From: a virus
Taxonomy: Duplodnaviria; Heunggongvirae; Uroviricota; Caudoviricetes
Virus record (IMG/VR): IMGVR_UViG_2636415959_000005
Direction: 5' to 3' (one strand)
Length of the DNA stretch: 40,716 nucleotides
The notes beneath the pieces were generated by a model. It had not been told where the DNA came from. It made no database searches and saw only the letters and a list, made by a program, of their open reading frames with translations. This document shows, one piece after another, positions 1 through 34,813 of the stretch (position 1 is the first letter of the stretch; each line of letters begins with the position of its first letter). A program made the translations under genes and the position numbers.

Positions 1-477
1 ATGAAACTCATCAGTAATGATCTGCGCGATGGCGATAAGTTGCCGCATCGTCATGTCTTTAACGGCATGGGTTACGATGGCGATAATATTTCACCGCATC
101 TGGCGTGGGATGATGTTCCTGCGGGAACGAAAAGTTTTGTTGTCACCTGCTACGACCCGGATGCGCCAACCGGCTCCGGCTGGTGGCACTGGGTAGTTGT
201 TAATTTACCCGCTGATACCCGCGTATTACCGCAAGGGTTTGGCTCTGGTCTGGTAGCAATGCCAGACGGCGTTTTGCAGACGCGTACCGATTTTGGTAAA
301 ACCGGATACGATGGCGCAGCGCCGCCGAAAGGCGAAACCCATCGCTACATTTTTACCGTTCACGCGCTGGATGTAGAGCGTATTGATGTCGATGAAGGAG
401 CCAGCGGCGCGATGGTCGGGTTTAACGTTCATTTCCACTCTCTGGCAAGCGCCTCGATTACTGCGATGTTTAGTTAA
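1..477 (+). CDS. ybhB: PEBP/UPF0098-family kinase-inhibitor-like protein YbhB (host gene)
   Basis: Full 158-aa ORF; translation matches E. coli YbhB as I recall it; lies immediately outside the att core. Confidence 0.9.
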   Translation: MKLISNDLRDGDKLPHRHVFNGMGYDGDNISPHLAWDDVPAGTKSFVVTCYDPDAPTGSGWWHWVVVNLPADTRVLPQGFGSGLVAMPDGVLQTRTDFGKTGYDGAAPPKGETHRYIFTVHALDVERIDVDEGASGAMVGFNVHFHSLASASITAMFS

Positions 478-567
478 TCACTCTGCCAGATGGCGCAATG
501 CCATCTGGTATCACTTAAAGGTATTAAAAACAACTTTTTGTCTTTTTACCTTCCCGTTTCGCTCAAG

Positions 568-582
568 TTAGTATAAAAAAGC
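568..582. repeat. attR core (15-bp lambda att common core, reverse orientation: ttagtataaaaaagc)
   Basis: Reverse complement is GCTTTTTTATACTAA; flanked on the left by host B' arm (cgctcaag) and on the right by lambda-like P-arm sequence. Confidence 0.9.
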
Positions 583-740
583 TGAACGCGAAACATTAAA
601 AAACATTAATATCAATGTGTTACAATATCTTTAGTCTAAAAAATAGACTACATGATGCTACAAAACACAACATATCCAGTCACTATGAATCAACTACTTA
701 GATAGTATTAGTGACCTGAGACAGAGCATTAGCGCAAGGT
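583..740. other. lambda attP P-arm region (arm-type Int/IHF/Xis binding region of attR)
   Basis: Sequence recalls the lambda P arm (…cagtcactatgaatcaactacttagatagtattagtgacctg…); recognised from memory, not aligned. Confidence 0.65.
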
Positions 741-778
741 GATTTTTGTCCTCTTGCGCTAATTTTTTGTCAACGCAC
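741..778 (+). terminator. sib/tI-like hairpin with T-tract (retroregulation element for int, separated from int in the prophage state)
   Basis: Stem gcgcaag…cttgcgc followed by taattttttg; sits in the P arm on the strand of int transcription, as in lambda. Confidence 0.5.
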
Positions 779-1022
779 TGGGTTAGTTGAATTTACAACC
801 ATGCTCAGTATCTCGATAAGCGCAGAGAAATGATGCAGTGGTGGGCGGACTGGCTTGATGAAAAGGTAGAGTGAGCGACCTTAAACTATCGAATAGAACA
901 AAGTCTTGCAATCCAGTGCAAAGCTTTGTGTGTCTCCGTTTTGTTTCATCAGTTACACATAACTATATGATCATTAGCTAAAAGTCAGTATACTTGGAGA
1001 AATTTTAATTGCGTAATAGAGC

Positions 1023-2195
1023 ATGCATATGATTGAAATTAACAGTTTATTATTAATAACATCCGTGATATTGATGTCGTTATTAGCTGTGGGGTTATTT
1101 GATAAAATTTCCCCAATAAATCTTGTTGAGCACGGCAGGAATAATCAAATAGATGGAATGCGGGGGTTCTTAGCAATTTTCGTGCTTATTCATCACGCAG
1201 CAATTTGGAATGGATACTTGTCATCTGGAGTATGGGAAGCACCTTCATCAAATCTGTTAGCAAATTTAGGCCAAGTTGGTGTGTCATTCTTTTTTATGAT
1301 TACTGGTTATCTGTTCTTTTCAAAGATTATCTCTGGAGATCAGGACTGGACAAGGCTTTATGTATCAAGATTACTACGATTAACCCCAATGTTCATAGTT
1401 AGCCTATGTCTCATTTTTATCATTGTAGGTTTTAAGTCTGGATGGAGAATGCAGGTATCCACAGAAGAGCTTTTTGTGTCAATAATGAAGTGGTTGCCAT
1501 TCACTGCGCTAGGTATGCCGAACATTAATGACGTAAAAGATTCATTTACTATCAATGCCGCTGTAACATGGACACTTGTATATGAATGGTTCTTTTATTT
1601 TTCTCTTCCGGTAATTTCCGCGCTCATAAAAAGAAAAGTCAGTATTTACATGGTTATGATTAGCGCAATATCGCTATTTGTTTTCATTTTATTTTTCAGT
1701 AAAATACACATAGTATCATTTCTTTTTGGGCTCCTGGCATTTTTGCTAAATAAATCAAAGATAGTCAATGGAATTGCCAAAGCAAAAGTAACACCAATCA
1801 TAATAACTGCGATAATGATTTTTGAAATGACGTATTTCAAAACAACTTACGCACCGCTACCACTGATTCTTTGTGGAATAACATTTATCATTATCGCATC
1901 AGGTTGTGATTTGTATGGAATATTAAGATTAAATATAACCAGAAAGCTAGGAGAAACTACCTACAGCGTTTACCTTCTGCATGGGATATTCCTTTATTGC
2001 CTAATGACGTGGATTATTCCTAATAATTACACTGAAAATACATTTATCATACTGGTAAGCACAACTGCATTTCTTATTACGTTCACATCATGCCTAACTT
2101 TTAAATTAATAGAGACGCCATTCATCAAATTAACAAAACAAACCACAACTTTAGTAAAAGAATTAATACCCACATTAACAAACAACAATCAATAA
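1023..2195 (+). CDS. oac: O-antigen acetyltransferase, acyltransferase-3 family integral membrane protein (serotype-conversion moron)
   Basis: 390-aa polytopic hydrophobic ORF with the N-terminal motif (…NQIDGMRGFLAIFVLIHH…) typical of this family; visibly AT-rich. Exact start (1023 or 1029) uncertain. Confidence 0.75.
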   Translation: MHMIEINSLLLITSVILMSLLAVGLFDKISPINLVEHGRNNQIDGMRGFLAIFVLIHHAAIWNGYLSSGVWEAPSSNLLANLGQVGVSFFFMITGYLFFSKIISGDQDWTRLYVSRLLRLTPMFIVSLCLIFIIVGFKSGWRMQVSTEELFVSIMKWLPFTALGMPNINDVKDSFTINAAVTWTLVYEWFFYFSLPVISALIKRKVSIYMVMISAISLFVFILFFSKIHIVSFLFGLLAFLLNKSKIVNGIAKAKVTPIIITAIMIFEMTYFKTTYAPLPLILCGITFIIIASGCDLYGILRLNITRKLGETTYSVYLLHGIFLYCLMTWIIPNNYTENTFIILVSTTAFLITFTSCLTFKLIETPFIKLTKQTTTLVKELIPTLTNNNQ

Positions 2196-2208
2196 ACAAT
2201 AAACATAA

Positions 2209-2240
2209 GCCGCCCTACATATATGTCCCAATAGGGCGGC
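2209..2240. terminator. Bidirectional hairpin between convergent oac and tailspike genes
   Basis: Inverted repeat gccgcccta…tagggcggc with a 14-nt loop; T/A-rich flanks on both sides. Confidence 0.5.
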
Positions 2241-2248
2241 GAATGTAT

Positions 2249-3960
2249 TTATAGTAGTCTGGTAATGCTAAATGCAAACGAACTGGAGATTCCTGCTCCG
2301 CTAAGCGTATTGCGCAGGGTCACCCTAAATGTATCTACGCCAATATAAGTAACATCACAACTAACTGAATCAGGCGCAGATATAGGTGTTATCTGAACCA
2401 CATAACCATTAGTAGCTGCTGCGAGCGGATGAGAAAACGTTACATCATACACACCAGTAGCTACCACGCTTACTGAGGACACACCTGGAGCCACATCAAT
2501 GCTGCCATTCGAGTTAATCCTTCCAGAACGAGTAATACTTCCAGCAGAGACAGAAGTAGCCTTGCTGGTTTGCTCCATGAAAGTACAGCCAATATCAATT
2601 ACTTCGCAGTTAGAGCCTGTAACCCAATACGGTCGCGAGGCGCTTGGGACGTAAGAACCTACGCTCTTGAATGTCGTACCATTGAGAATTACAGTTACTT
2701 TTCCACCGCCAGAGCTTGTAATATTTAAGTTGTTTATGGTGTACATCGTACTGCTAACACGATGGAAGTTGCCGCCGTTAATAATTACGGTGACGGGGCG
2801 CGTTCCCGTGTTATCAATGCCAAGGTCAGAACCACCAGCGTTAGCCTCAAAATATGGGTTATTAAGTACCAAAGCACATGACCCATTAAGACCGTTCACG
2901 GCAATCTGCATACCGCCAGTGCCAGTATTACCTTGCGTGCCGTTACCCTCACAGGTAAGGCTATTGATGGTAGTCCCTGCGCCCCATCTGTCACCAAGTA
3001 TACCCCATTGTGTATTCTGGCTTGCGGTTAATCTGTTGACAGTAATTGCATTAAGTTCTGAAAAATCATCAGAATTAAGCACTCGCCACCCAATACGATT
3101 TGCCTGCAGGTACACATTATCCAATTCAGAAGTCAATACAGCGTCTGTTCGTAAACCTTCGCCGTTGGTATGTCCGTAAGATACTATATTCTCTAACTTG
3201 GCATATGCTTTCTTGGTTACGAGAAGACCGTAAGACGTTGCTGAGCCTTTAAGCGTAATATTTCCGAGATAATCATACGCATGTACTCGCTGTGTGCCAC
3301 CAACTGTATCACCGAGCATCTTTAAGTTGAAATCCGAGGCATGGCAGTTAAATATCGTTTCTGCCATATTTTCTCCGGAATAATGAGCACGGACTCCTGT
3401 CGAACCAATAAATTTAGCGTCATAGTTGCCGTAATCAAGAACGAGTGGTGACGCGATATCGTACACCCCTTGCTTTATTTTTAATGTTCCACCGAAAGGC
3501 CACGATGTAAGCGGGTCTTGATATATTTCATTTTTTATTGCAAATAGCTCCTCTTGGAGATTTTTGCCGCTATTAGTGCCAATGTGAGCAGCTCCTTCAT
3601 CTGATTGAAGTAACTGCTTTAACTGATCAGGATCGTACTTCAGCACATTCTGAAAATAGAACTGCTGCGAACCATACGCATCATATACAGCCATTGAATG
3701 GCCTTGCTCAGTTACAAATTTGGCAATCTGCCCGTTGTACACAGGATATCCGGCAGCATTGATAACAATTGGCTGAGAAACAGGGACGTGAGATCCGTCT
3801 TCATTCTCTACATAAACCTGAATCTGGTTTTCAGGATTTACCGGGTCAGTGTCAATTTTTCCGATATAAATTTTGCCATTGGCTACGGCTTTAAAAGAAC
3901 GCGCCATAGTGAAGAGTTGCGAAGGCATGCTTACCACAATATTTGCGGTGATATCTGACA
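2249..3960 (-). CDS. Tailspike protein (P22 gp9-like N-terminal head-binding domain, distinct receptor-binding domain)
   Basis: N-terminus [13 protein letters not shown]…[13 protein letters not shown]…LKYDPDQ matches the P22 tailspike head-binding domain; start set at MSDITAN (track ORF runs to 4009). Confidence 0.85.
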
Positions 3961-4082
3961 TTTCATTGCTCCAGACGAATGATATGATGCAACCATGATG
4001 TGATTGCATACCGAAATGGTACTATTGAGTATTTATCCAGTAAGTTACGATGCCATTCCACCCAACTGGTGAGGCATCAAGG

Positions 4083-4343
4083 ATGTACAGCAAATACGAC
4101 GAGGCGCAGTTTCACTTGAGACTTCCGCATGAACTCCACGCGAAAATTAAACAGCGCGCGAAGATGAATAACAGGTCGCTGAACTCAGAGATAATTGCAG
4201 CGATTGAAGAATCATTGGCTAAACAAAGCTCTGCATCAGTTTACATTGACGATGCAGAGCGTATGGCAGAACAACAATCCGATATGGTTAAGAAAATTGT
4301 CTTTGATACGCTCAAAGAGCTATATAAAAAAGACAGCAGCTAA
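4083..4343 (+). CDS. mnt: Mnt-like ribbon-helix-helix repressor (P22 immI-type), orphan
   Basis: Aligns with P22 Mnt as I recall it (…NNRSLNSEIIAAIEESLAK…DAERMAEQQSDMVKKIVFDTLKELYKKDSS); start set at MYSKYDE. Confidence 0.8.
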   Translation: MYSKYDEAQFHLRLPHELHAKIKQRAKMNNRSLNSEIIAAIEESLAKQSSASVYIDDAERMAEQQSDMVKKIVFDTLKELYKKDSS

Positions 4344-4363
4344 CTATCAGTTACGGAGGATTT

Positions 4364-4441
4364 ATGCAAAGAGATATGCTGAATATTGCGTTCTACATAT
4401 TTGGTTTTTGCACGTTCCTGGTGTTTGCGAAGCTATTCTGA
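4364..4441 (+). CDS. Possible 25-aa hydrophobic peptide (MQRDMLNIAFYIFGFCTFLVFAKLF) downstream of mnt
   Basis: ggagga Shine-Dalgarno 4 nt before the ATG; single predicted transmembrane helix; overlaps the 3' end of the gp16-like gene on the other strand. Too short to support by homology. Confidence 0.25.
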   Translation: MQRDMLNIAFYIFGFCTFLVFAKLF

Positions 4442-6430
4442 CAACGCATCAGACTTGGCACCTTGAGTCAGGGCGTTAATGGCCTTTTGCGCCTGCTGCA
4501 TGGCTTTCTCAAACGCTGTTGATCCGCGCGGGGTGTTTGCCATTCGGAGCATTGCATTTCTGAATGGCTCGCTCTCATAGGCGCGAGTAAGAAGTCCGTA
4601 GCTTACTGCTGCGCCAGTTGTCGCCGGGTTCATTGCCGTCCCATACCCAATAATGAACGGGATAGTTTGCTGCCCTGTGGGTGTTGTTACTGCCGCTTTT
4701 GCAGCCTGCTGCGTGGATTGCAGGTAGTTTTTTAATCCCTTCAGATAAGCAGCGTCCTGCCCCTTAAATGTGATGCCAGTCTGGTTTTGCAGGATGTTAA
4801 GCTGCCGAAGGAACTGGTCAGGGGATCCGCCAGATTTCTCCATCGCCTTTCCAATGATGCCATTGCGCATTTGCGCCCTGCCAACACGACCAACTGAGTT
4901 ATACAGCGTCTTAATTTCAGATTTGTTCTTGCTGAATAGCATGTTGTTGACAACTTCCGGCGTCAGATCGCCTTTCATGAGAACATTCTTCAGCCTGGTA
5001 TTCTTTAGTTTCGCTGCTTCGTCAGCGTAGACGGCATTGGCCTGCTGATATTTACGGAGAGTATCGTTGCCAAGATTCTGACCAATGGCACCATTGATAT
5101 CGTCGGTCATTGCCTTGTAAACGCGCTGAATGGCAGCATCGGAACGGTTTGGTAACACTGGTCGCTCACCCTTCACGTCCATTCTGAACTGGCTGCGCAG
5201 ATCGCTTAATTGCTTCAAATCCAGATTAACCGGACCATCAGGGCCAGCATTGCGAACAAGCTCATCACGATATGACTGAAGTTTTGAAATTGTCTCGTTA
5301 TCAGCTACCTTACCAAGCTTCTGCAGATTAGATATTTCTGTATCAATCTGCTGAATTGCTCGCGCAGGCTGAATGTTTACTCCAGCCATAGCATTCTGAA
5401 CCTGCTCCAGTCGATTACCGGCGGCACGACGAATTCCTGATGTTTTCGCTTTAAGACTGTCAATAACAACAGATGGATCATACTCACCGAATTTATCAGC
5501 AAATCTCTGCACCAACTGGCTTCTCGCTTCCTGTTGCGTTGCTCTCATTCCGCTTGTGCCAGCCAGGGGGATATTTTCTGCTGTAGTCTGCGCCATTTTT
5601 CCGACGCGGGAAGTGGGTTGTAACAGGTCTGTGGTGTGCAGAGGAACTCCTTCACGCTCTGCAAATCTGATAGCCTGCTGCGCTTCTGGCGCGATAGCAC
5701 CACGAACGCCACGATAAGCAGCACCTAATCCACGTCCGGCAGCGTTAATAGCACCGCCAGCAAGTACACCAACGCCTAAATCGGTGGCGAGTGCTTCCGC
5801 ATCATCTTTCGCACTATTTGCAGCAAGTGATCCAACTGCGTTTTCTGCTAGAAGGCGGGTTGCCCCCTGAGCAATTCGACCAGCAAGTGTTGGTGCCTGT
5901 GCTGCCGCTCTCTCAACGCCAGCAGGAGTGAGGTAAGGCAATGCTTCAGCAAATACCCTTCCCTCTGTCGTTTGTGGAGTCAGCGCACCTTGCTGAAGGC
6001 CAAAGTCCTGCTCTAATCCCTGCGTTGTTACTCGTGGTGCTGGTTGATATGTTCCATCGCCAATACCGAGTTTACCTCCGGCCCAAGCCGCCGCGCTTGT
6101 TACAGCATCGGCAACTGATGCAGGTATGTTTGCCACGTTCACGCCAGCCTGCACCAGTCCGCGACCAGTTTCTTTCACGGCTTCACCAAGATCAGACATA
6201 AATCCACTTTGCTGTGGTTGTTGCTGTGATACTGGTTGTTGTGTCTCCACTGGCTGCACAGATGGCAATGGATAGGCAGCATAGAAAGCTTGCTTAGCCT
6301 GCTCTGCATTTTCTCCGGCTTGCGGGGCAACGACTTCATTGAAGTATTGCTCCTGAGCCTGCGCTTTTTGTTCTGGTGCTAACGCCTGATACTGTGGAGA
6401 GGCGATAACATCTTTCCATGCTTTAGCCAT
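4433..6430 (-). CDS. Ejection/DNA-transfer protein (P22 gp16-like)
   Basis: 665-aa ORF in the conserved position and order of the P22 ejection proteins; Ala/Gly/Gln-rich. Confidence 0.7.
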   Translation of the reverse strand: MAKAWKDVIASPQYQALAPEQKAQAQEQYFNEVVAPQAGENAEQAKQAFYAAYPLPSVQPVETQQPVSQQQPQQSGFMSDLGEAVKETGRGLVQAGVNVANIPASVADAVTSAAAWAGGKLGIGDGTYQPAPRVTTQGLEQDFGLQQGALTPQTTEGRVFAEALPYLTPAGVERAAAQAPTLAGRIAQGATRLLAENAVGSLAANSAKDDAEALATDLGVGVLAGGAINAAGRGLGAAYRGVRGAIAPEAQQAIRFAEREGVPLHTTDLLQPTSRVGKMAQTTAENIPLAGTSGMRATQQEARSQLVQRFADKFGEYDPSVVIDSLKAKTSGIRRAAGNRLEQVQNAMAGVNIQPARAIQQIDTEISNLQKLGKVADNETISKLQSYRDELVRNAGPDGPVNLDLKQLSDLRSQFRMDVKGERPVLPNRSDAAIQRVYKAMTDDINGAIGQNLGNDTLRKYQQANAVYADEAAKLKNTRLKNVLMKGDLTPEVVNNMLFSKNKSEIKTLYNSVGRVGRAQMRNGIIGKAMEKSGGSPDQFLRQLNILQNQTGITFKGQDAAYLKGLKNYLQSTQQAAKAAVTTPTGQQTIPFIIGYGTAMNPATTGAAVSYGLLTRAYESEPFRNAMLRMANTPRGSTAFEKAMQQAQKAINALTQGAKSDALSE

Positions 6431-7818
6431 TAATCACCCCATAGTGAAGAAAAATTACTGCTGGCTGCTGGCTGTGATACCTGTGCAGGTTGAGATTGCT
6501 GCCGCTGAGATTTACCAACATTAACGTTATATTGTTGGTTGTAATTGTTGGTGTATTCCTGAATCTCACGAATCGACTGCTGCATAGCCTCCGGGCTTGA
6601 ATAGTCAACCTGCGGCATCCCCTGAAAATACATCTTCGCTTCTGCAACGGTGTTAATACCACTGGCACCCATGTCCCTTGCTGCCGCCACACCCTGATTC
6701 TGCATTCTGCCCTGAATACGTTGTGCTGAGTTATATAACTGGCGCTGCTCTTTTCCTGTTAATCGGCTGCGAACATCAGCACCAATTGCCGGGTTACCTG
6801 CGCCGCCGGTCATTCCTGTCATGAAATCGAGAGCAGAAGCGTCTGCATTTGCGATCGCGTCGATATCCTTCTTCATGGCATAGTTTTGTGCTGATGCAGA
6901 CGATGTTGCAGGCGCTGCGATTGAACTGGCAGGAACGCGAACCATATTCCCCTCGTTGTCGATACCTTCGTAGAACGCATTTGCCCCAGCGCCGTGAAGT
7001 TTCCCGCCAACCGTTACAGTTCTGCCATCTGATAACTGAACTGTACGCTCATCATTCCCAGCGGTTCCTCTTGTTGACGCTCGCTGCATTGCCAAATCCT
7101 GCCCGCGTCGCGCAGTAGAAGCAGATAAATCCTGACCGCGCATCGTGATGTTCTGACCTCGTGCTGTTAGCGCCTCGCCAGCCTGATTGCTGCGGATTGT
7201 CTCTGCCAGCCTGCCTCGGTCAATTTCACGACCAGCCATCTTGTCCTGAACATTGAAGTAGTCAATAGGACCGAGAGCAGCCATCCCAAGGTGATCAACA
7301 AACTCACCAAATCCTGAAGGGTTCTGCTGATACATCTGAGCAACGCTGTTAGGGTCAACACCGACGCGAGTCAGTTCCTTGGCGTTGTTTTGCAGCCATG
7401 ATTGCATTGCTTCTGGAGACGAGGCCGCAAGGCGTGCGCCAGCCGCTAAGGTGCCGATAGAATTACGCTGGTCTTCATCAATGAATCCCATGCCTTTACG
7501 AACGGATTCAATCTGGTCTGGATATTGAGTAGCCAACTGACGCAAAGCACCGCGATCACCAGACGCATAAGCATTAGCGTACGCCTGCTGAAATTCTTTC
7601 TGCCGCTGAGCCTGCTTTTCCTGCTGAAACACCCCTGCAATACCTGAAAGGCCTTGCAAAGCAGTCAGCCCAACATTGTTAGCGCCTGAACGCTCAATAT
7701 CATTGTTCTGCCTGATAAGCTGAAGCGTATTGCCGATGTCATTTACGCTCGGAGCGTTTGAGTTGACGCCGCCGATACCAGCCAACAATCCGCCGTTTGT
7801 TCCTTGCCAAGTAGCCAT
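6430..7818 (-). CDS. Ejection/DNA-transfer protein (P22 gp20-like)
   Basis: 462-aa ORF; size and position match P22 gp20; overlapping start/stop with neighbours. Confidence 0.7.
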
Positions 7819-7827
7819 GATTACCCC

Positions 7828-8520
7828 TTAAAACAACGAGCCAAGCAATCCGATACCAGCACCAATGCCAGCGCCCCAAGGCGTTGATGTTTCCAAAAGG
7901 CTGGCAAGACCTGCACCGGCAATCGCACCAGACGTGCCGCCGCTAATTGCAGTCTGAAGACTTGATGGTTTATTGGCATTAGCAGCGGCAAGTGCTGCGC
8001 TTTGCTGTGCAATGCTGCTCATGTTGTTGGCGTACGTCTGCCCGGCGTTTGCCTGACCTTGCAGCGCACCAAGCCCAACGTTTGCCAGATTGTTGTAATT
8101 GCTCATCTGATTTGATAACCAAGACTGACCGAGTGTCGGCGCGATCGTAGCCAGTTGATTGCTTGTGGCTGTCGAACCAAGGCCACCAGTCGCCTCCGCA
8201 GCAGCAAGACTCTGGTAACGAGCCTGACCTGCAAGGTCTTTATACTGCTGAGAGTTGTAATACTGATTAAGTGCCTGCCCCTGACCTTCTAAACTGGAAA
8301 GATTCTGAAGCTGGTTAACATACTGCTCCGCAAGCGGCGTGAACGGAGCAAGGTTTTTCATGATCGTCTGCCACTGCTGATTTTGCAGGTCTGCGGCATA
8401 CTTCTGAGCTTCTGCTGCATACTTTGCGCTTTTATCAGAGCTGCCACCTTTCCCGCCTTTTTCAGGGCAATAAGGTTCCTCGCCACGCAGTTTTCTGCCT
8501 AGCTTAAATGCATATAACAT
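7828..8520 (-). CDS. Ejection/DNA-transfer protein (P22 gp7-like)
   Basis: 230-aa ORF with Gly/Ala-rich hydrophobic C-terminus; size and position match P22 gp7. Confidence 0.7.
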   Translation of the reverse strand: MLYAFKLGRKLRGEEPYCPEKGGKGGSSDKSAKYAAEAQKYAADLQNQQWQTIMKNLAPFTPLAEQYVNQLQNLSSLEGQGQALNQYYNSQQYKDLAGQARYQSLAAAEATGGLGSTATSNQLATIAPTLGQSWLSNQMSNYNNLANVGLGALQGQANAGQTYANNMSSIAQQSAALAAANANKPSSLQTAISGGTSGAIAGAGLASLLETSTPWGAGIGAGIGLLGSLF

Positions 8521-8522
8521 GG

Positions 8523-8981
8523 CTATCTCCTGTGATTCAGGAAGTCGATTAGTTCTTCGCGTGTGGCGCTGTAAAACGTCACGTCATCCACGCCTTTGAA
8601 GTATTTCTTGATGGTTCCTACACGCTTAAGGCCAATCATTGCGCAGTACATCTGCCCGTGGCGGAATTTGCGTGCAGCGAACGATGTGACGCACTGAACG
8701 GTGGTGTTAGTCAGAATGTATCGCCAGAACGCCAGCCCGATTTCCTTGCTGAAGCCGCGAATCTCTGGCAGGTACATGGCGTGGCAATCGAATGTCAGCG
8801 GCTGAATCTCCTGATAGTAAACAATGCCGCCGAACTGCCCGTGCACGTTCACCTCAAAGTAACGGCAATCAGGTTTGTAGTCGTATCCATCACCGTTGTT
8901 GCTCCCGGCGATAATGTCAGGGTGATTTCCTACTGCTTCGATCAGGTCGATGTTTCGCGTTGGTTTGAACTGAATCATCAC
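8523..8981 (-). CDS. Virion assembly/injection-associated protein (P22 gp14-like position)
   Basis: 152-aa ORF between the tail needle and ejection genes; assigned by synteny only. Confidence 0.5.
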
Positions 8982-9826
8982 TGCTCCGCAATGATTTTGA
9001 TGGTTGTGGCAGTAAACGCCGCCCCATTTGACTGAATGGTTAACGTACTGCCATTTGTGGCAAGAAAGCCGTCTTTATCCACGCTGAAGAACGTAGCTAA
9101 CAGGATGTTGTCGGTTGTTGTCGCCGAGTTGCGACTGCTTACCAGTGTGTCAGGAACAGAACCGGAAAATGTTAGCTGCATTGACCTGTTGGCGGTTCCG
9201 CTGGGCCACGTCCCGACAATCGACAGCTTGAAGAACAAGGTTTTGTTCTCGTTGAACACAACCATCTTGTTGTTAACAGTGTCGAAGAATGGTGCCAACG
9301 TCCCGGATGACGGCGTGAGCGTTTTCAGCAGGCTAACAAGGTTGGTCGGCGCTGTCGGGATGGTTACTGATACGCCAGAGTAAACAACCTCTGACTTCTT
9401 GCGTTTGGTTGCATACTCCAGAGCATCAATGCGCGTTTCATGGTCTGAAACCTGCGACTCCAGCGACTGAACTCTGGTATCAAGCGACGCAATATCGCTT
9501 TCATTCTGAGCGATTCGCGTTTCATGGTCCTGAAGAGTTGATTCTGCCTGGCTGATTCGCTCCTCATGATTAACAAGCGTTGCTTCCGCAGCAGAAATTC
9601 GCTGCTCATGGTCAGCGAGAATCACATCCTGCTCATCGTTCCTGACTTGTGCGTCATAAGCGCCCTGTCCGGCCTCGTTGGCCTTGTTAGCCACGTTACC
9701 AACATCAGTGCCCTGTGCGATAACGTAAAGCAGATACGACTGCGAGAAGATATTGCGTGGAAGGACTGATGTGTCGAGCCGTGTAGCCTGAATGATTACC
9801 GGCACATTGAGATTCGAATCCGCCAT
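8978..9826 (-). CDS. Tail needle protein (P22 gp26-like coiled coil with C-terminal knob, Sf6-type)
   Basis: N-terminus and heptad-like repeats (…[38 protein letters not shown]…) followed by an extra globular C-terminal domain; 282 aa. Confidence 0.8.
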
Positions 9827-11244
9827 TACTCAATCCTTATCTGAGCGCCAGACAGAGTGACAGGTGACTTCGTGATAACGCGCAATTTGAAGCCGACATT
9901 TTTCCTGATGCGCCCGACTCGCTTCCACAAAACACGTTTGTCGTAAACGAACGGTTCATTCTGTTCAATCATCTGCTCACGTCCGTAATTTATGCCGTCA
10001 GTGGTTGCAGAGAGGAACAGGCGGTCGGCGTACTGAGCTACGCCAGTGGATGATTCCACCTCCAGATCGAAGCATCTGGCGTTATCCGCTTTGAACAACG
10101 GAGTAAACAGCAGGTGTTCCTGTTGCTTGTCGTACTGGCTGCTGATGTCGAACTGCAATTTCCCGGTCACCGATTCCAGCTTATCGCCGCACGTTATCTG
10201 ATTGCCTTCGTAAATGAAGTCGATAGCGCGGTACACATCGTCATACAGGCCAGTTTTCAACACACACCATTGCGGACCATTGGCGCTTGAAGATGCGTCG
10301 TACACGAGAACATGGCGCGGAAGGTGGATAATCAGCAACTCATGAGCATCAAATCGCAGCGATTCCATCACACCATCAGCCAGTTCATCAGCAGTGTAGG
10401 AGCGGAGGATTTTCTCAATGCTCGCGCTGGCGATTGGTGACACCTGACCGGAGCCGATGATGTATACAGACGGCGCACCTGTTGCCGGATTGCTTATGAA
10501 CGCATACGAATCAGCAAACGGCGTTTTGCAGTAAGTCCCGGCGATGCCTTTTTGCACCATCAGTGATGGCTGTGCGACATACAAAGCGGCACCAACGGTG
10601 GTTGCGCCAGTCAGGGAGAAATATTCAATCGTCGATGAGCCAAAGCAAACGATGAAGTCTCGCCATGTACCTATGCCGATGATGCCGTCCGGCTGCGATT
10701 CTGCGCGATATTGTGCACTGTATCGGTCAGGGTGCGATTCGTCTTCAAGGTCAGTGATAAACCATGAATCAGTTCCGTCTTTTGACCACGCATAACGCCC
10801 ACGTAAGCGCGTAATGTCGCGAACTGAACCTAACTCATACTGTGTGAATCCGCTGTCTGTAGGCCAGTTTGAGACGGTTCTAACCGTGCCATCATAGCGA
10901 TACTCGACCAGTTGCCCGTTAACGCCAACCGCCTGTGATGTCCGACCATGTGCCATTGATACGCGACCACTTCCGGCAACATCACCAACCTCACTTTCTC
11001 CTTTGTACAGTTTGCCACCACACACGCGATAAACAGCACTCTGCGCCATGTTGTACTCGACGCCGCGAGATACACCGTTCACATCAGAACGTTTGGCAAT
11101 GCCCGGGAATGAGCGAAGATATCCGCTGCTGTTGAGGATTTCTTTGGGTGTAGCCAACATATTCACTGGCAGATAGTCGATATAGTCGGCGTTTCTAAAG
11201 TCTTTGCCGACACCTTTCATAAGCGGAAGTTGCTGAATCGGCAT
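9826..11244 (-). CDS. Tail hub/accessory protein (P22 gp10-like)
   Basis: 472-aa ORF, the length I recall for P22 gp10, in the conserved position. Confidence 0.75.
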
Positions 11245-11253
11245 TTATTCACC

Positions 11254-11715
11254 TCACGTACTCGGATCATCTTTCTCGATGTAAAACCGATTCCACGTAA
11301 ACGCGCTTTTGTTACCACTACCGCGAGGCATATCATTTCGCCGCTCAAGTGGTGGTATTTTGGTTAAAGCGATACAGATTGTCTGATATGCACTGTCAGC
11401 AGCGGTAAGGAGAGCGTCTGACGGCTGAATGACGTTATCCATGCACACTTGCACAGCGAGTTTCAAAGCGACGCCATCATTTGCCCATGCAGGGATACCT
11501 GAATCATCGTCAGGTAACGGCATGATGCCGTTTTCTGTATCCGCAAACTGATATCCAAGCTCGATACCTTTCGCCTGCCATGCTGCCATCATGTCTTCGA
11601 GGTCATTAATGGCATCTTCAATTGCCTGAGGGTCGGCATCTGTCAACGTGGCATTGGAATACAGCCCGGCTTTTCGTAAAGCCTTAAGAACGAGATCACC
11701 CTTCGTTTTCGCCAT
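11254..11715 (-). CDS. Head-to-tail adaptor (P22 gp4-like)
   Basis: 153-aa ORF in the conserved position after the coat gene. Confidence 0.65.
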   Translation of the reverse strand: MAKTKGDLVLKALRKAGLYSNATLTDADPQAIEDAINDLEDMMAAWQAKGIELGYQFADTENGIMPLPDDDSGIPAWANDGVALKLAVQVCMDNVIQPSDALLTAADSAYQTICIALTKIPPLERRNDMPRGSGNKSAFTWNRFYIEKDDPST

Positions 11716-18966: not shown

Positions 18967-19488
18967 TTAAATGATTTGCCAGTCTTCTGCTAGAACATCA
19001 GTCTGACTAGCCAGCCACGGCACTAATTTATCGTCCGCTGTTTTCATGGCGATATACGGAAGTTGTTTCGGAGATCGTTTCGATTCTCCATGCGTACCTT
19101 CAGGCAACTCAAAGACGCGACTGCAAAAGCAAGGCGTACTGCCAGTATGAACAGCCTCAGTGTACGGTTTAACGTATGCCAGCCACATGCCCTTACCATT
19201 CCAGCCAGCACGGGCAACTTTATTCCCCAACTTGAGCGCTTCAATGGCAAGGCCGAAACTTAGCCCTGATACCGGACGATAAGCCTTTTCGAATACTTCT
19301 TTTGGACTCCAGCTAACGTAGCCATCAAAGCGATCGGTGTTAGGTTTTCCGCCATCAAGATATTCAACCAGATAGCCTTCATCCTCGCCGTTTTCTCCGG
19401 CAGGAAGCTGCCAGCCACGAAAATCGTTATATGCCTGTCTCGTCATCGGAAAGGCGTTAATCAGTTTTACGCCAATATGCTGGGTCAT
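18967..19488 (-). CDS. Two-domain hypothetical protein; C-terminal half resembles the DUF2829 family
   Basis: 173-aa ORF; C-terminal motifs (…ALKLGNKVARAGWNGKGMWLAY…PWLASQTDVLAEDWQII) resemble DUF2829 as I recall it. Not verified by profile search. Confidence 0.45.
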   Translation of the reverse strand: MTQHIGVKLINAFPMTRQAYNDFRGWQLPAGENGEDEGYLVEYLDGGKPNTDRFDGYVSWSPKEVFEKAYRPVSGLSFGLAIEALKLGNKVARAGWNGKGMWLAYVKPYTEAVHTGSTPCFCSRVFELPEGTHGESKRSPKQLPYIAMKTADDKLVPWLASQTDVLAEDWQII

Positions 19489-27480: not shown

Positions 27481-28128
27481 ATGAAAACGATGCATGAAAT
27501 TATCGGGGAAAGGATCAAGTCCCTTAGAGAAGCTAAAGGACTTAGCCAGGCTCAATTGGCCAAGCTTTGCGGCTGGGCTGCGCCTTCACGCCTGGGGAAC
27601 TACGAGTTAGGAACAAGAAAGGTTAGCGCGGATGACGCGCTGGTTCTTGGGGCGGCACTCGGCGTATCTCCGGCAAAAATAATGTTTGGCGAGGATTCAG
27701 ACGCCGTATTTCGCCAATATGAATACCCGTTATTTTCTTCAGTGCAGGCCGGGCCATTTTCGGAGGTGGGAAGCTACACAGCCAGCGATGCAAAGGCATG
27801 GGTCCCAACGACCACAAAAGCCAGCGAAAAAGCTTTCTGGCTTGAGGTGAAGGGGCATTCAATGACGGCGCCTCAGGGGGTTCGTCCAAGTTTTCCGGAA
27901 GGCATGCTGATACTCGTTGATCCGGCTGAGCCGGTAGAGTCTGGGGATTTCTGCGTGGCTTCTGCAAATGGTGATTCAGAGGCAACGTTCAAGAAGTATG
28001 AGAAGGATGCAGGGGTTAGTTACCTGGTACCTTTAAACCCGGCATATAGAACCCTGGATTGCGACCATAGCTGCCGCATCATAGGCAAGGTAGTTAAGGC
28101 GCAGTGGCCTGAAGAGACGTTTGGCTGA
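27481..28128 (+). CDS. cI: CI repressor (novel N-terminal HTH domain, lambda-like S24 C-terminal domain)
   Basis: 215 aa; C-terminal part (…[15 protein letters not shown]…[14 protein letters not shown]…QWPEETFG) resembles lambda CI; N-terminal part does not. Alternative start at 27490. Confidence 0.9.
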
Positions 28129-28240
28129 TCGGCAAGGTGTTCTGGTCGGCGCATAGCTGATAACAATTGAGCAAGAATCTTCATCGAATTAGGGGAATTT
28201 TCACTCCCCTCAGAACATAACATAGTAAATGGATTGAATT

Positions 28241-29080
28241 ATGAAGAATGGTTTTTATGCGACTTACCGCAGCAAAAATAAAGGGAAAGATAAGTGCTCA
28301 ATAAACCTGTCTGTTTTCCTTAATTCTCTGCTGGCTGATAATCATCACCTGCAGGTTGGCTCCAATTATTTGTATATTCATAAAATCGATGGAAAAACTT
28401 TTCTCTTTACCAAAACAAATGACAAGAGTCTGGTTCAGAAGATAAATCGCTCTAAAGCTTCAGTTGAAGATATTAAGAACAGCCTCGCAGATGACGAATC
28501 ATTGGGATTCCCATCTTTTTTGTTTGTTGAAGGCGACACCATTGGTTTTGCCAGAACTGTTTTCGGGCCGACCACATCCGATCTGACAGATTTTTTAATC
28601 GGGAAAGGAATGTCATTAAGCAGTGGAGAGCGCGTTCAGATAGAGCCACTGATGAGGGGAACCACCAAAGACGATGTTATGCATATGCATTTCATCGGCC
28701 GAACAACGGTGAAGGTAGAAGCCAAGCTACCTGTATTTGGCGATATATTAAAGGTCTTAGGGGCAACAGATATTGAAGGGGAGCTTTTTGACTCATTGGA
28801 TATAGTCATTAAGCCAAAATTTAAAAGGGATATAAAAAAGGTTGCCAAGGATATTATTTCTAACCCGTCACCTCAATTTTCAGACATTAGCCTGCGGGCA
28901 AAAGATGAGGCCGGAGATATTTTAACAGAACATTATCTATCAGAAAAAGGCCATCTCTCAGCGCCTCTGAACAAGGTCACCAATGCTGAGATAGCTGAAG
29001 AGATGGCATATTGCTACGCAAGAATGAAAAGTGATATACTGGAATGTTTTAAAAGGCAGGTGGGCAAAGTTAAGGATTAA
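28241..29080 (+). CDS. rexA: RexA (Rex abortive-infection/exclusion system sensor)
   Basis: 279 aa; translation matches lambda RexA as I recall it (MKNGFYATYRSKNKGKDK…QVGKVKD). Confidence 0.9.
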   Translation: MKNGFYATYRSKNKGKDKCSINLSVFLNSLLADNHHLQVGSNYLYIHKIDGKTFLFTKTNDKSLVQKINRSKASVEDIKNSLADDESLGFPSFLFVEGDTIGFARTVFGPTTSDLTDFLIGKGMSLSSGERVQIEPLMRGTTKDDVMHMHFIGRTTVKVEAKLPVFGDILKVLGATDIEGELFDSLDIVIKPKFKRDIKKVAKDIISNPSPQFSDISLRAKDEAGDILTEHYLSEKGHLSAPLNKVTNAEIAEEMAYCYARMKSDILECFKRQVGKVKD

Positions 29081-29095
29081 TTATCAGGAGTAATT

Positions 29096-29530
29096 ATGCG
29101 GAACAGAATCATGCCTGGTGTTTACATAGTAATAATTCCTTACGTTATCGTAAGCATTTGCTATCTCCTTTTCCGCCACTACATTCCTGGTGTTTCTTTT
29201 TCAGCTCATAGAGATGGCCTTGGGGCGACATTGTCATCATATGCAGGAACCATGATTGCAATCCTGATTGCTGCCTTGACGTTTCTAATCGGAAGCAGAA
29301 CGCGCCGACTGGCCAAGATTAGAGAGTATGGGTATATGACATCGGTAGTTATTGTCTATGCCCTTAGTTTTGTTGAGCTTGGAGCTTTGTTTTTCTGCGG
29401 GTTATTGCTTCTTTCCAGCATAAGCGGCTACATGATACCCACTATCGCCATCGGCATTGCCTCTGCATCGTTCATTCATATATGCATCCTTGTTTTCCAA
29501 CTATATAATTTGACCAGAGAACAAGAATAA
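29096..29530 (+). CDS. rexB: RexB (Rex system membrane protein)
   Basis: 144 aa polytopic membrane protein; matches lambda RexB as I recall it. Confidence 0.9.
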   Translation: MRNRIMPGVYIVIIPYVIVSICYLLFRHYIPGVSFSAHRDGLGATLSSYAGTMIAILIAALTFLIGSRTRRLAKIREYGYMTSVVIVYALSFVELGALFFCGLLLLSSISGYMIPTIAIGIASASFIHICILVFQLYNLTREQE

Positions 29531-33134: not shown

Positions 33135-33842
33135 ATGGATTTGAATAAATTCGATGAGCCATTCAGCCCTGAAGATATCGAATGGCGAATACAGCAAAGC
33201 GGTAAAACACGCGATGGAAAGGTGTGGGCTATGGTGCTGGCTTATGTCACGAACAGGGCAATCATGAAACGCCTGGACGATGTTTGCGGCAAAGCAGGAT
33301 GGCGCAATGAATACCGCGATATTCCCAACAACGGCGGCGTTGAATGCGGCATATCAATAAAGATTGATTCCGAATGGGTAACCAAATGGGATGCTGCTGA
33401 AAACACGCAGGTAGAAGCCGTCAAAGGTGGTCGTTCCGGTGCAATGAAGCGCGCTGCCGTTCAGTGGGGAATCGGTCGGTATCTGTATAACCTTGAGGAA
33501 GGTTTCGCACAAACATCTATCGATAAAAAGCAGGGGTGGCACAGGGCAAAACTGAAGGATGGAACAGGATTTTACTGGCTCCCTCCATCGCTTCCGGGAT
33601 GGGCAATCCCAGCATCAGATAACAAACCATCACCAGAAAATACCAACCAGAAATCTCCATCGGTTGACTGCGAACAAATCCTGAAAGACTTCAGCGATTA
33701 TGCGTCAACAGAAACTGACAAGAAAAAACTCATCGAGCGTTATCAGCGTGACTGGCAATTAATGGCTGGCAACGAGGAGGCGCAGGCTAAATGCGTTCAG
33801 GTAATGAACATCAGAGTTAACGAACTAAAACAGGCGGCATAA
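33135..33842 (+). CDS. Single-strand annealing protein, Rad52/Sak-like (functional analogue of lambda Bet)
   Basis: 235 aa; motif …GGRSGAMKRAAVQWGIGRYLYNL… typical of phage Rad52-family annealing proteins; gaggtg RBS. Confidence 0.65.
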   Translation: MDLNKFDEPFSPEDIEWRIQQSGKTRDGKVWAMVLAYVTNRAIMKRLDDVCGKAGWRNEYRDIPNNGGVECGISIKIDSEWVTKWDAAENTQVEAVKGGRSGAMKRAAVQWGIGRYLYNLEEGFAQTSIDKKQGWHRAKLKDGTGFYWLPPSLPGWAIPASDNKPSPENTNQKSPSVDCEQILKDFSDYASTETDKKKLIERYQRDWQLMAGNEEAQAKCVQVMNIRVNELKQAA

Positions 33843-34310
33843 ATGTATCACTTGGACGGAATTATTAAAAGATTCGAGTCCAGCTACAAAGTTAATGAAA
33901 CAACAGGTTGCTGGGAGTCTACCTATTCAAAAAACAAAGGAGGATACACAAAATTTGTAGCCTTTGGCGTAACAATGCTTTCTCATCGTGTTGCTTTTGA
34001 GCTTTATCACTCCCCCATTCCATCTGGGAAGATGGTTTGCCACAAATGCGATAACCCATGCTGCGTTAATCCTGAACATCTCTTTTTAGGTAGCGCGCAA
34101 GAAAACATGGACGACAAGATAGCAAAAGGAAGGCATCGTGGAGCCAAGAAAGGTCATGCTCATCATGGTGCAAAATTAACAGAGTGGCAGGTTATAGAAA
34201 TTAGGAAAAGACTCTCTGAAAAAGAGAGTCAGTACAAGATAGCAAAAGACATGGGTGTATCTCAATCAATTATAAGCAACATAAAAACTGGCAAGAGGTG
34301 GAGCAAATGA
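33843..34310 (+). CDS. HNH endonuclease with C-terminal DNA-binding region
   Basis: 155 aa; HNH signature [44 protein letters not shown]; overlapping start and stop with neighbours. Confidence 0.85.
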
Positions 34311-34813
34311 GTTCTCGCGGGATAAATAAGGTGATTATCCTTGGTCGGGTAGGACAAGACCCGGAAGTTCGATACTCACCATCAGGAACAGCGTTCGCTA
34401 ACCTGACAATAGCCACGTCAGAACAATGGCGAGATAAAAATACTGGCGAGCAAAAGGAATTGACTGAATGGCATCGTGTTGCTGTATCCGGGAAACTGGC
34501 TGAGGTCGTGGGGCAGTATGTGAAAAAAGGTGATCAGATTTATTTCGAGGGAATGCTGAGAACCAGAAAGTGGAAAGACCAGTCAGGGCAAGACCGTTAC
34601 ACAACCGAGGTTCATGTCGGAATTAATGGCGTGATGCAAATGCTTGGCGGCATTGGCGACAGCAAACAACAAGCAGCCAGCAGGCAATCACAGAAGCCAC
34701 AGCAGCAATCATCACCAGCACAACACAACGAACCTCCGATGGATTTTGACGACAATATACCCTTTGCACCAGTAACTCTCCCCTTCCCTCGTCACGCTAT
34801 TCACGCAATTTAA
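34307..34813 (+). CDS. ssb: Single-stranded DNA-binding protein (SSB) with C-terminal extension
   Basis: [23 protein letters not shown]…TEWHRV…[17 protein letters not shown] parallels E. coli SSB; acidic tip [11 protein letters not shown] is followed by 15 more residues. Confidence 0.9.

What the first reader, a model, noticed from the sequence alone, without database searches (positions are those of the whole stretch)
600..2240. AT-rich O-antigen acetyltransferase moron convergent with the tailspike gene
The 1023..2195 gene is visibly far more AT-rich than the rest of the prophage and encodes a polytopic acyltransferase-3 protein of the type used for O-antigen acetylation. It sits in the position lambda uses for its non-essential b region, is transcribed opposite to the tailspike, and shares a hairpin terminator with it. 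Pairing a receptor-modifying enzyme with the receptor-binding tailspike suggests lysogenic conversion of the O-antigen that blocks superinfection.
Basis: partly seen in the sequence, partly recalled or inferred. Interest (0 to 1): 0.55.

Follow-up and report, generated by a model that had tools for sequence, protein, structure and literature searches.

The report
Known phage O-antigen acetylase gene oacB
The AT-rich gene is oacB, an already characterised phage-borne enzyme that acetylates rhamnose III of the Shigella flexneri-type O-antigen.

Summary
Window 1023-2195(+) encodes a 390-aa Acyl_transf_3 protein, and at 33.8% GC it is the most AT-rich stretch of a 48.4% GC window. It converges on a P22-type tailspike gene (2249-3961, minus strand). 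The two are separated by 53 bp holding a 9-10 bp G+C hairpin (2209-2240).

The prophage is complete. It lies between ybhB and ybhC at the lambda att site, with two 15-bp cores and a lambda-type integrase. The gene therefore occupies the lambda "b-region" position.

Three things differ from Sf101:
- the integration module;
- a diverged tailspike receptor domain (87.8% aa);
- the host, because the first 9,961 window bases equal E. coli G3/10 (Symbioflor 2).

Related prophages carry gtrABC in the same slot. Exclusion of the prophage's own phage type remains untested.

Verdict: already known, low interest.

The parts
568..582 (.). Lambda att core TTAGTATAAAAAAGC (reverse complement of GCTTTTTTATACTAA). 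This is the bio/ybhB-proximal prophage junction, attR in lambda convention.
   Evidence: The exact 15-mer occurs twice in the window, at 568-582 and 39372-39386, with 0 expected by chance. ybhB lies at 1-477 (NCBIfam equivalog, 9.5e-104).
583..790 (+). Lambda/434-type attP arm with a tI/sib-like intrinsic terminator (hairpin 720-771, core stem 728-762, then a T-run).
   Evidence: The stretch is 88-97% identical to the attP regions of lambda, 434 and related phages, where 'terminator' and 'O core of attP' are annotated. The fold is -27.9 kcal/mol, z = -5.4.
791..874 (+). 3' remnant of an argW-type (Sf6-like) integrase gene, ending ...MMQWWADWLDEKVE*. It is a scar of module exchange.
   Evidence: It aligns to the 3' end of Sf6 int and to the intact int that sits directly upstream of oacB in argW-integrated prophages. 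RefSeq annotates the same piece as a partial pseudo-CDS in E. coli O68:H12.
952..1022 (+). oacB-specific leader and presumed promoter region. It marks the left edge of the cargo cassette.
   Evidence: Homology to gtrABC-carrying prophages at the same site ends at 951. Only weak sigma-70 candidates were found, with -10 TATGAT at 966-971 or TATACT at 989-994 and 8/12 matches.
1023..2195 (+). oacB: a 390-aa stand-alone AT3 (Acyl_transf_3) membrane O-acetyltransferase.
2209..2240 (.). G+C-rich hairpin between the convergent stop codons, a probable bidirectional terminator.
   Evidence: z = -3.8 and -3.9 on the two strands. It is 100% identical in Sf101 and 10 other loci. The homologous hairpin in E. 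coli PapM-32-1 keeps the stem through a compensatory change. Sf6 has an annotated terminator at the same position.
2249..3961 (-). P22-type tailspike: a head-binding domain plus an O-antigen receptor-binding domain of the Sf101/Sf11/SfX type.
   Evidence: Pfam Head_binding. 87.8% aa to the Sf101 tail protein and 85.5% to Sf11 gp13. Residues 121-569 match PDB 9occ at E=4e-256. The gene is mosaic against Sf101: 100% nt at both ends and 64-78% in 2400-2800.
38228..39298 (+). Lambda-type integrase at the far end of the same prophage.
   Evidence: Pfam Phage_integrase plus Arm-DNA-bind_1, the lambda integrase arm-binding domain. In other genomes the identical protein sits beside Xis and ybhC.
39372..39386 (.). 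Second lambda att core, at the ybhC-proximal junction (attL).
   Evidence: ybhC-like pectinesterase ORF at 39433-40716.

Best explanation
The gene is oacB, carried as lysogenic-conversion cargo by an apparently intact P22-like (Lederbergvirus-type) prophage integrated at the lambda att site.

OacB is a stand-alone AT3/TmAT inner-membrane acetyltransferase. By analogy with solved relatives, it binds cytoplasmic acetyl-CoA in a transmembrane pore and passes the acetyl group to the periplasmic face. There it O-acetylates position 3 or 4 of rhamnose III in the ->2)Rha-(1->2)Rha-(1->3)Rha-(1->3)GlcNAc O-unit. This creates O-factor 9.

The gene sits in the cargo slot between the attP arm and the 3' end of the late operon. 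It is insulated upstream by the tI/sib-like terminator. It ends at a hairpin shared with the convergent tailspike gene, so it can be expressed from its own weak promoter in the lysogen.

The tailspike next to it binds the same O-antigen family. Acetylating that receptor changes the lysogen's serotype and reduces its use by at least some O-antigen-specific phages.

Shown: gene identity, enzyme activity (literature, identical protein), fold, genomic anatomy.
Inferred: the promoter, terminator function, activity in this E. coli host, and exclusion of the cognate phage.
For: Identity: 100% aa to Sf101 OacB. The V231/I266 allele is the one shown functional by NMR.

Family and fold:
- Pfam AT3 hit.
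- All seven residues whose alanine substitution abolishes OacB function are present (PMC8952252).

Anatomy: att cores, integrase and host flanks; hairpin.

A cargo slot:
- E. coli O68:H12 97.3 and PapM-32-1 carry gtrABC at exactly this place at ybhB. In PapM-32-1 the tailspike receptor domain is related, at 83% nt.
- Sf6 carries oac there.

The tailspike recognises S. flexneri-type O-antigen: its receptor domain is 85% identical to Sf11 gp13. Sf11 uses the O-antigen as its receptor and was imaged attached to serotype Y cells.

Phage resistance: oacB+ serotype 2a strains resist Sf6, and oacB deletion restores sensitivity (Teh 2020 as cited in PMC8973906).

Recurrent linkage: OacB homologues at 72%, 65% and 51% identity each lie convergent to a receptor-binding or tail-fibre gene in other phage types.
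Against: - Acetylation by OacB is partial, about 1/4 at O3 and 1/5 at O4. A complete receptor block is unlikely.
- Sf101 plates with full efficiency on serotype 1a and also infects 1b. These are serotypes in which oacB-type acetylation is reported, although the oacB status of the tested strains is not given. Self-exclusion is therefore unproven.
- No convincing sigma-70 promoter was found upstream.
- The hairpin loop is 12-14 nt and the U-tract on the oacB side is poor.
- The host here is E. coli, not Shigella. Its O-antigen type was not established. Symbioflor 2 strains are described only as 'O35,129, O169, rough', so a substrate in this strain is assumed, not shown.
Confidence: 0.9

Rival explanations
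1. The gene is kept mainly because serotype conversion (a new O-factor 9 epitope and an altered O-antigen conformation) helps the lysogen against host antibodies or in gut colonisation. Phage exclusion would be a side effect. This overlaps with the best explanation and differs only in what is selected.
For: O-acetylation is sub-stoichiometric. Sf101 still plaques on serotypes that commonly carry the modification. In most S. flexneri strains oacB survives on a transposon-like remnant near adrA without a functional phage. The literature treats OacB chiefly as a serotype and immunogenicity determinant.
Against: oacB does confer Sf6 resistance in serotype 2a. OacB homologues recur directly next to receptor-binding genes of unrelated phage types. 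That pattern points to a phage-centred benefit.
Confidence: 0.35
2. In this particular E. coli host the gene is silent or substrate-less cargo. The strain may be rough or may make an O-antigen without the S. flexneri backbone, so OacB currently does nothing.
For: The window is identical to E. coli G3/10 over 9,961 bases. Symbioflor 2 strains include rough ones. oacB is absent from 5,426 complete RefSeq E. coli genomes, so E. coli is an unusual host.
Against: A P22-like phage needs its tailspike receptor to infect, so the host had the matching O-antigen when it was lysogenised. One Symbioflor serotype includes O129. A paper title in the reference list of PMC7685785 describes O129 as related to S. 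flexneri O-antigens. The ORF and all critical residues are intact.
Confidence: 0.2
3. The enzyme acylates a different envelope polymer (peptidoglycan, ECA, a capsule) rather than the O-antigen.
For: AT3 proteins as a family act on many acceptors, and some sources name distant homologues 'peptidoglycan/LPS O-acetylase OafA/YrhL'.
Against: It is 100% identical to a protein whose product was mapped by NMR to RhaIII O3/O4 of the O-antigen. It has no SGNH domain like the peptidoglycan enzyme OatA.
Confidence: 0.03

Closest known systems
OacB of Shigella phage Sf101 (Jakhetia et al. 2014, PMC4159516)
   Same: The protein is identical (390/390 aa) and the gene differs at 2 synonymous nucleotides. The 53-bp spacer and hairpin are identical. 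The gene is likewise convergent with a tailspike of the same receptor-domain family. Both are P22-like podovirus genomes.
   Different: Sf101 has an HK544/2851-type integrase and integrates in sbcB; this prophage has lambda int/att and sits between ybhB and ybhC. Sf101 orf17 is absent; instead there is a lambda P arm plus a remnant of an argW-type int. The tailspike receptor domain is only about 84% nt and 87.8% aa identical. The host is E. coli rather than S. flexneri 7a.
Chromosomal oacB (SF0315) of S. flexneri 2a/1a/1b/5a/Y upstream of adrA (Wang et al. 2014, as cited in PMC4159516 and PMC8973906)
   Same: The same gene and enzymatic activity, differing by two conservative substitutions (A231V, V266I).
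   Different: There it sits on a transposon-like, IS-flanked remnant without a functional phage. Here it is in a complete prophage with both att sites.
OacC of S. flexneri serotype 6
   Same: 72% identical AT3 protein (P0002) with the same 3/4-O-acetylation of RhaIII according to PMC4206707 (title/abstract). It is also AT-rich (32.8% GC) and convergent with phage tail-fibre genes.
   Different: It lies in a Mu-like or myovirus-type tail module rather than a P22-like one, and acts on a different O-antigen backbone (serotype 6).
Oac of phage Sf6
   Same: It occupies the same slot: convergent with the tailspike, an annotated terminator between them, int on the other side, in a P22-like genome. 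It is also a stand-alone AT3 O-antigen acetylase.
   Different: Only 26% identity over 184 aa, 333 aa long, 41.8% GC. By my recollection it acetylates RhaI (O-factor 6) rather than RhaIII. The attP lies upstream of int.
gtrABC glucosylation cassettes of P22, SfX and E. coli prophages
   Same: They fill exactly the same position (att arm, cargo, tailspike). In E. coli PapM-32-1 the cassette lies next to a related tailspike receptor domain and a homologous hairpin. They are also AT-rich, at 37% GC.
   Different: Different chemistry: a three-gene system that glucosylates via undecaprenyl-phosphate glucose.
HGSNAT / TmAT superfamily (solved structures 8jkv, 8tu9; GWT1 8xik)
   Different: 12% sequence identity, no sequence-level PDB hit, and Foldseek not significant. 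OacB has no luminal or periplasmic extra domain, and its acceptor is different.

Membership tests
OacB (S. flexneri-type O-antigen RhaIII 3/4-O-acetyltransferase) | Near-identity to an experimentally characterised OacB | tested here: met
   390/390 aa identical to Sf101 OacB. It carries V231/I266, the allele shown functional by NMR.
OacB (S. flexneri-type O-antigen RhaIII 3/4-O-acetyltransferase) | Residues essential for function (R47, H58, W71, F98, R116, R119, S146) and the motifs DGxRGxLAxxVxxHH, FFxITG(Y/F)LFxxK, WxLxYEWxFY and YSxYLxHG | tested here: met
   All are present at the published positions (PMC8952252; PMC4159516).
OacB (S. flexneri-type O-antigen RhaIII 3/4-O-acetyltransferase) | Acetylation of RhaIII O3/O4 in the actual host, which needs an S. 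flexneri-type O-antigen as acceptor | not testable with these tools
   The host rfb cluster lies outside the window and no LPS data are available. The published serotype list for Symbioflor 2 is not resolved by strain.
AT3 / TmAT transmembrane acyltransferases | Acyl_transf_3 domain covering the protein, with a core of about 10 transmembrane helices | tested here: met
AT3-SGNH fused acetyltransferases (OafA/OafB/OatA type) | C-terminal periplasmic SGNH domain | tested here: not met
   The protein is 390 aa and Pfam finds no second domain. OacB is described as a stand-alone AT3.
Serotype-converting P22-like (Lederbergvirus) prophage | A tailspike with the P22 head-binding domain, the P22-type virion and ejection gene set, and cargo between the tailspike and att/int | tested here: met
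   Head_binding hit. gp16, gp20 and gp7 homologues are called in the identical contig. The window is 95% nt identical to Sf101 over 69% of its first 20 kb.
Lambda-att integrated prophage | Two copies of the 15-bp lambda core flanking the element between ybhB and ybhC, and a lambda-type Int | tested here: met
Rho-independent (intrinsic) bidirectional terminator | A G+C-rich stem, a short loop (3-8 nt) and a U-tract on both transcripts | tested here: inconclusive
   The stem is strong and conserved with one compensatory change. However, the loop is 12-14 nt, so the consensus scan did not call it. The minus-strand tail is T-rich and the plus-strand tail is weak.
Superinfection exclusion by receptor modification | The modified O-antigen is no longer bound or cleaved by the cognate tailspike, so adsorption is reduced | not testable with these tools
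   The only evidence is indirect: oacB-dependent Sf6 resistance in serotype 2a. No data exist for Sf101 or this tailspike.

The most novel reading that the evidence does not exclude
A commensal or probiotic E. coli (sequence identical to Symbioflor 2 strain G3/10) carries an intact, possibly inducible, lambda-att P22-like phage with the S. flexneri serotype-conversion gene oacB and an S. flexneri-type tailspike.

The identical gene, with the same hairpin and tailspike family, is also seen:
- behind an argW-type int;
- next to torT, which I recall as the HK022 att region (from memory, not checked);
- in sbcB, in Sf101.

The same slot can hold gtrABC instead. The slot would then be a hot-swappable cassette site, bounded by the conserved post-int sequence and the tailspike terminator. 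E. coli of the O13/O129/O135 type would be a reservoir and shuttle for Shigella O-factor 9 conversion.
Probability: 0.3. Interest if true: 0.35.

Novelty: already known. Interest (0 to 1): 0.15.

Why it matters
O-acetylation by OacB defines O-factor 9 of S. flexneri and affects vaccine antigen design and phage susceptibility. That is established.

This locus adds only context.
- The same gene rides in a prophage with a different integration module, at the classical lambda site.
- The tailspike receptor domain is diverged.
- The host is an E. coli whose sequence matches a marketed probiotic strain.

For that strain it may be worth knowing that it harbours an apparently complete serotype-converting prophage. 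The locus also gives a clean natural example of cassette exchange (oacB versus gtrABC) in one slot.

Tried and rejected
- **Decaying prophages with truncated tailspikes.** Several public contigs listed a 207-aa gene call where the tailspike should be. Direct translation showed that all ten tailspike genes are intact 570-571-aa ORFs, so the idea was rejected.
- **oacB plus tailspike receptor domain as one fixed unit.** This was rejected. PapM-32-1 has a related receptor domain with gtrABC. Within oacB carriers the receptor domain varies by 8-13% aa while oacB stays 100% identical.
- **Hairpin as the recombination boundary.** This was rejected. Near-identity to other loci runs about 110-200 nt into the tailspike 3' end.
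- **Promoter.** The promoter scan found no site upstream of oacB at 9/12, and a relaxed scan found only 8/12 candidates. The post-int hairpin at 898-928 is not better than shuffles.
- **Papers not available.** Wang et al. 2014 and Teh et al. 2020 are not held, so they are cited second-hand. The O-serotype of strain G3/10 could not be found.
- **tRNA call.** ARAGORN's tRNA-Ala(cgc) lies inside the cI-like ORF and has no Rfam support, so it is treated as a false positive.

Full report
**1. Observation**

The window opens with ybhB (1-477; NCBIfam equivalog PRK10257, 9.5e-104). The flagged ORF 1023-2195(+) is real. It encodes 390 aa and matches Pfam Acyl_transf_3 across residues 41-353 (E=2.5e-32).

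Its G+C content is 33.8%, against 49.0% for the rest of the prophage and 48.4% for the whole window. Of all gene-sized (1173-nt) windows, the lowest (34.0%) starts at 1001, about 3.8 sd below the mean. All three codon positions are equally AT-rich.

The next gene, 2249-3961(-), is a 570-aa tailspike with the P22 head-binding domain (E=2.4e-65). The two genes converge.

The 53-bp spacer contains GCCGCCCTA (2209-2217) / TAGGGCGGC (2232-2240). It folds at -21 and -23 kcal/mol on the two strands, with z = -3.8 and -3.9, and no shuffle does as well.

**2. What the gene is**

A tblastn search of 50,697 phage records gives one full-length match: the O-acyltransferase B (OacB) of Shigella flexneri phage Sf101, at 100% identity. 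The genes differ at two synonymous positions.

The Sf101 paper cloned this allele (V231, I266) into an oacB-negative strain. It showed by 1H NMR and TOCSY that the O-polysaccharide acquires O-acetyl groups at O3 (about 1/4) and O4 (about 1/5) of rhamnose III (PMC4159516).

Alanine substitution of R47, H58, W71, F98, R116, R119 or S146 abolishes OacB function (PMC8952252). All seven residues and the four published motifs are present here.

These are the acetyl-CoA-pore transmembrane acyltransferases. A 2025 paper unites them with AT3 proteins as the TmAT superfamily and names OacB as a stand-alone AT3 without an SGNH domain (PMC12423673).

The likely mechanism follows: acetyl-CoA is bound from the cytoplasm, the acetyl group is passed across the membrane, and it is transferred to the O-unit at the periplasmic face. 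This mechanism is inferred by homology. The product is shown experimentally.

**3. Surroundings**

The lambda att core (TTAGTATAAAAAAGC, the complement of GCTTTTTTATACTAA) occurs exactly twice, at 568-582 and 39372-39386. Between the two cores lies a P22-like genome.

- Its far end holds a 356-aa integrase with the lambda arm-binding domain (38228-39298), followed by ybhC.
- Window 564-800 is 88-97% identical to the attP regions of lambda and 434, where a terminator and the O core are annotated. The hairpin plus T-run at 720-771 (z = -5.4) is the tI/sib-type terminator.
- Window 791-874 is the 3' end of a different, argW-type integrase gene. It aligns to the end of Sf6 int, so it is a scar of an earlier exchange of integration modules.
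- The same scar and junction occur in E. coli O68:H12 strain 97.3, which has gtrA-gtrB-gtrC instead of oacB. Its homology to the window stops at 951.
- E. coli PapM-32-1 also has gtrABC at this site, and its homology resumes at about 2187.

The oacB cassette is thus about 952-2200, at 33.5% GC.

**4. The hairpin and the tailspike**

The spacer is 100% identical in Sf101 and ten other oacB loci. In PapM-32-1 the homologous hairpin reads GCCTCCCTACG / CGTAGGGAGGC. Its stem is kept through a G-C to U-A double change. Sf6 has an annotated terminator at the equivalent place.

This supports a conserved structural role, most simply a shared terminator. However, the loop here is 12-14 nt and the plus-strand U-tract is weak, so function remains inferred. 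The hairpin travels with the tailspike 3' end rather than with the cargo.

The tailspike receptor domain is 87.8% identical to that of Sf101 and 85.5% to gp13 of siphophage Sf11 (PDB 9occ, E=4e-256). Sf11 uses the S. flexneri O-antigen as its receptor.

Against Sf101 the gene is mosaic. It is 100% identical at both ends and 64-78% identical in 2400-2800.

**5. Distribution**

The exact protein is on record in 35 contigs. In the ten places shown it occurs in these contexts:
- at ybhB, as here;
- directly downstream of an intact argW-type int next to yfdC;
- next to torT.

Sf101 itself is in sbcB, and most S. flexneri strains carry oacB on an IS-flanked remnant near adrA.

In all the places shown oacB is 99.7-100% identical at the nucleotide level, while the tailspike receptor domain varies.

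No copy exists in 5,426 complete RefSeq E. coli genomes or in 72,556 plasmids.

Window 1-9961 is identical, with no mismatch, to contig JPKI01000003.1. That accession belongs to probiotic E. coli G3/10 of Symbioflor 2 (PMC4358396). The exact tailspike protein is known from only three contigs, all labelled E. coli.

Homologues at 72% (OacC), 65% and 51% identity are likewise AT-rich. Each lies convergent to a tail-fibre or tailspike gene in other phage types.

**6. Does it block superinfection?**

Reviews list Sf101 oacB under receptor inactivation (PMC11436027), but they cite only the genome paper.

Direct evidence exists for another phage. S. flexneri 2a strains carrying oacB resist Sf6, and oacB deletion restores infection (Teh et al. 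2020, as cited in PMC8973906).

For Sf101 or this tailspike there are no data. Sf101 plates fully on serotype 1a, and acetylation is partial. I rate conversion as shown, heterologous exclusion as shown in one background, and self-exclusion as plausible but open.

**7. Verdict**

The gene is already named and biochemically characterised, and the tailspike-cargo-att arrangement is the textbook layout of serotype-converting P22-like phages.

Three things are particular to this locus: the lambda int/att module, the diverged tailspike allele, and the E. coli (probiotic-strain) host. These make it another mosaic carrier of a known gene, not a new kind of system.

Novelty: already known. Interest: 0.15.

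Noticed in passing
window 18967-19488 (-): A 173-aa ORF carries a Pfam Tad2-like (Thoeris anti-defence 2-like) domain, E=2e-25. It is a possible anti-defence gene in the late region of the prophage.
   Followed up: no
window 27481-29530 (+): A cI-like repressor (HTH + Peptidase_S24) is followed directly by RexA-like (28241-29080) and RexB-like (29096-29530) exclusion proteins. This is a lambda-style cI-rexA-rexB immunity operon inside a P22-like virion genome.
   Followed up: partly
window 27679-27761 (+): ARAGORN calls a tRNA-Ala(cgc) that lies entirely inside the cI-like ORF. Rfam at gathering threshold finds no tRNA there, so it is probably a false positive.
   Followed up: partly
window 720-771 (+): A strong hairpin plus T-run (z = -5.4) lies in the lambda-type attP arm. 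It is homologous to the annotated terminator (tI/sib region) of phage 434 and lambda. In the prophage it sits between ybhB and oacB and would stop read-through from the host gene.
   Followed up: partly
window 791-874 (+): An 84-nt 3' remnant of an argW-type (Sf6-like) integrase gene is fused to the lambda attP arm. The same junction occurs in E. coli O68:H12 97.3, so the exchange of integration modules predates the oacB/gtrABC difference.
   Followed up: yes
window 33843-34310 (+): An HNH endonuclease gene is inserted between the erf-like recombinase (33135-33842) and ssb (34298-34813).
   Followed up: no
window 1-9961; L006/L014 (JPKI01000003.1): The window is base-for-base identical to a contig of probiotic E. 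coli G3/10 (Symbioflor 2). A marketed strain thus apparently carries a complete prophage with a Shigella serotype-conversion gene.
   Followed up: partly
L019 (E. coli PapM-32-1) 2380-6713; L002 (E. coli O68:H12 97.3) 6546-11345: At the same ybhB/att-lambda site, other E. coli prophages carry gtrABC in place of oacB. One has a tailspike receptor domain related to the window's (83% nt) and one has an unrelated one. The slot exchanges cargo independently of the tailspike.
   Followed up: yes
window 2400-2800 (-), tailspike residues about 387-520: This is the most diverged part of the tailspike relative to Sf101 and other oacB-linked alleles (64-78% nt), flanked by 100%-identical ends. It suggests recombination or diversifying change in the receptor-binding region.
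   Followed up: partly
window 4050-4343 (+): An Mnt-like repressor (Arc plus Repressor_Mnt domains) lies between the tailspike and the gp16 gene, with no adjacent ant or arc gene seen among the ORFs of at least 40 aa.
   Followed up: no
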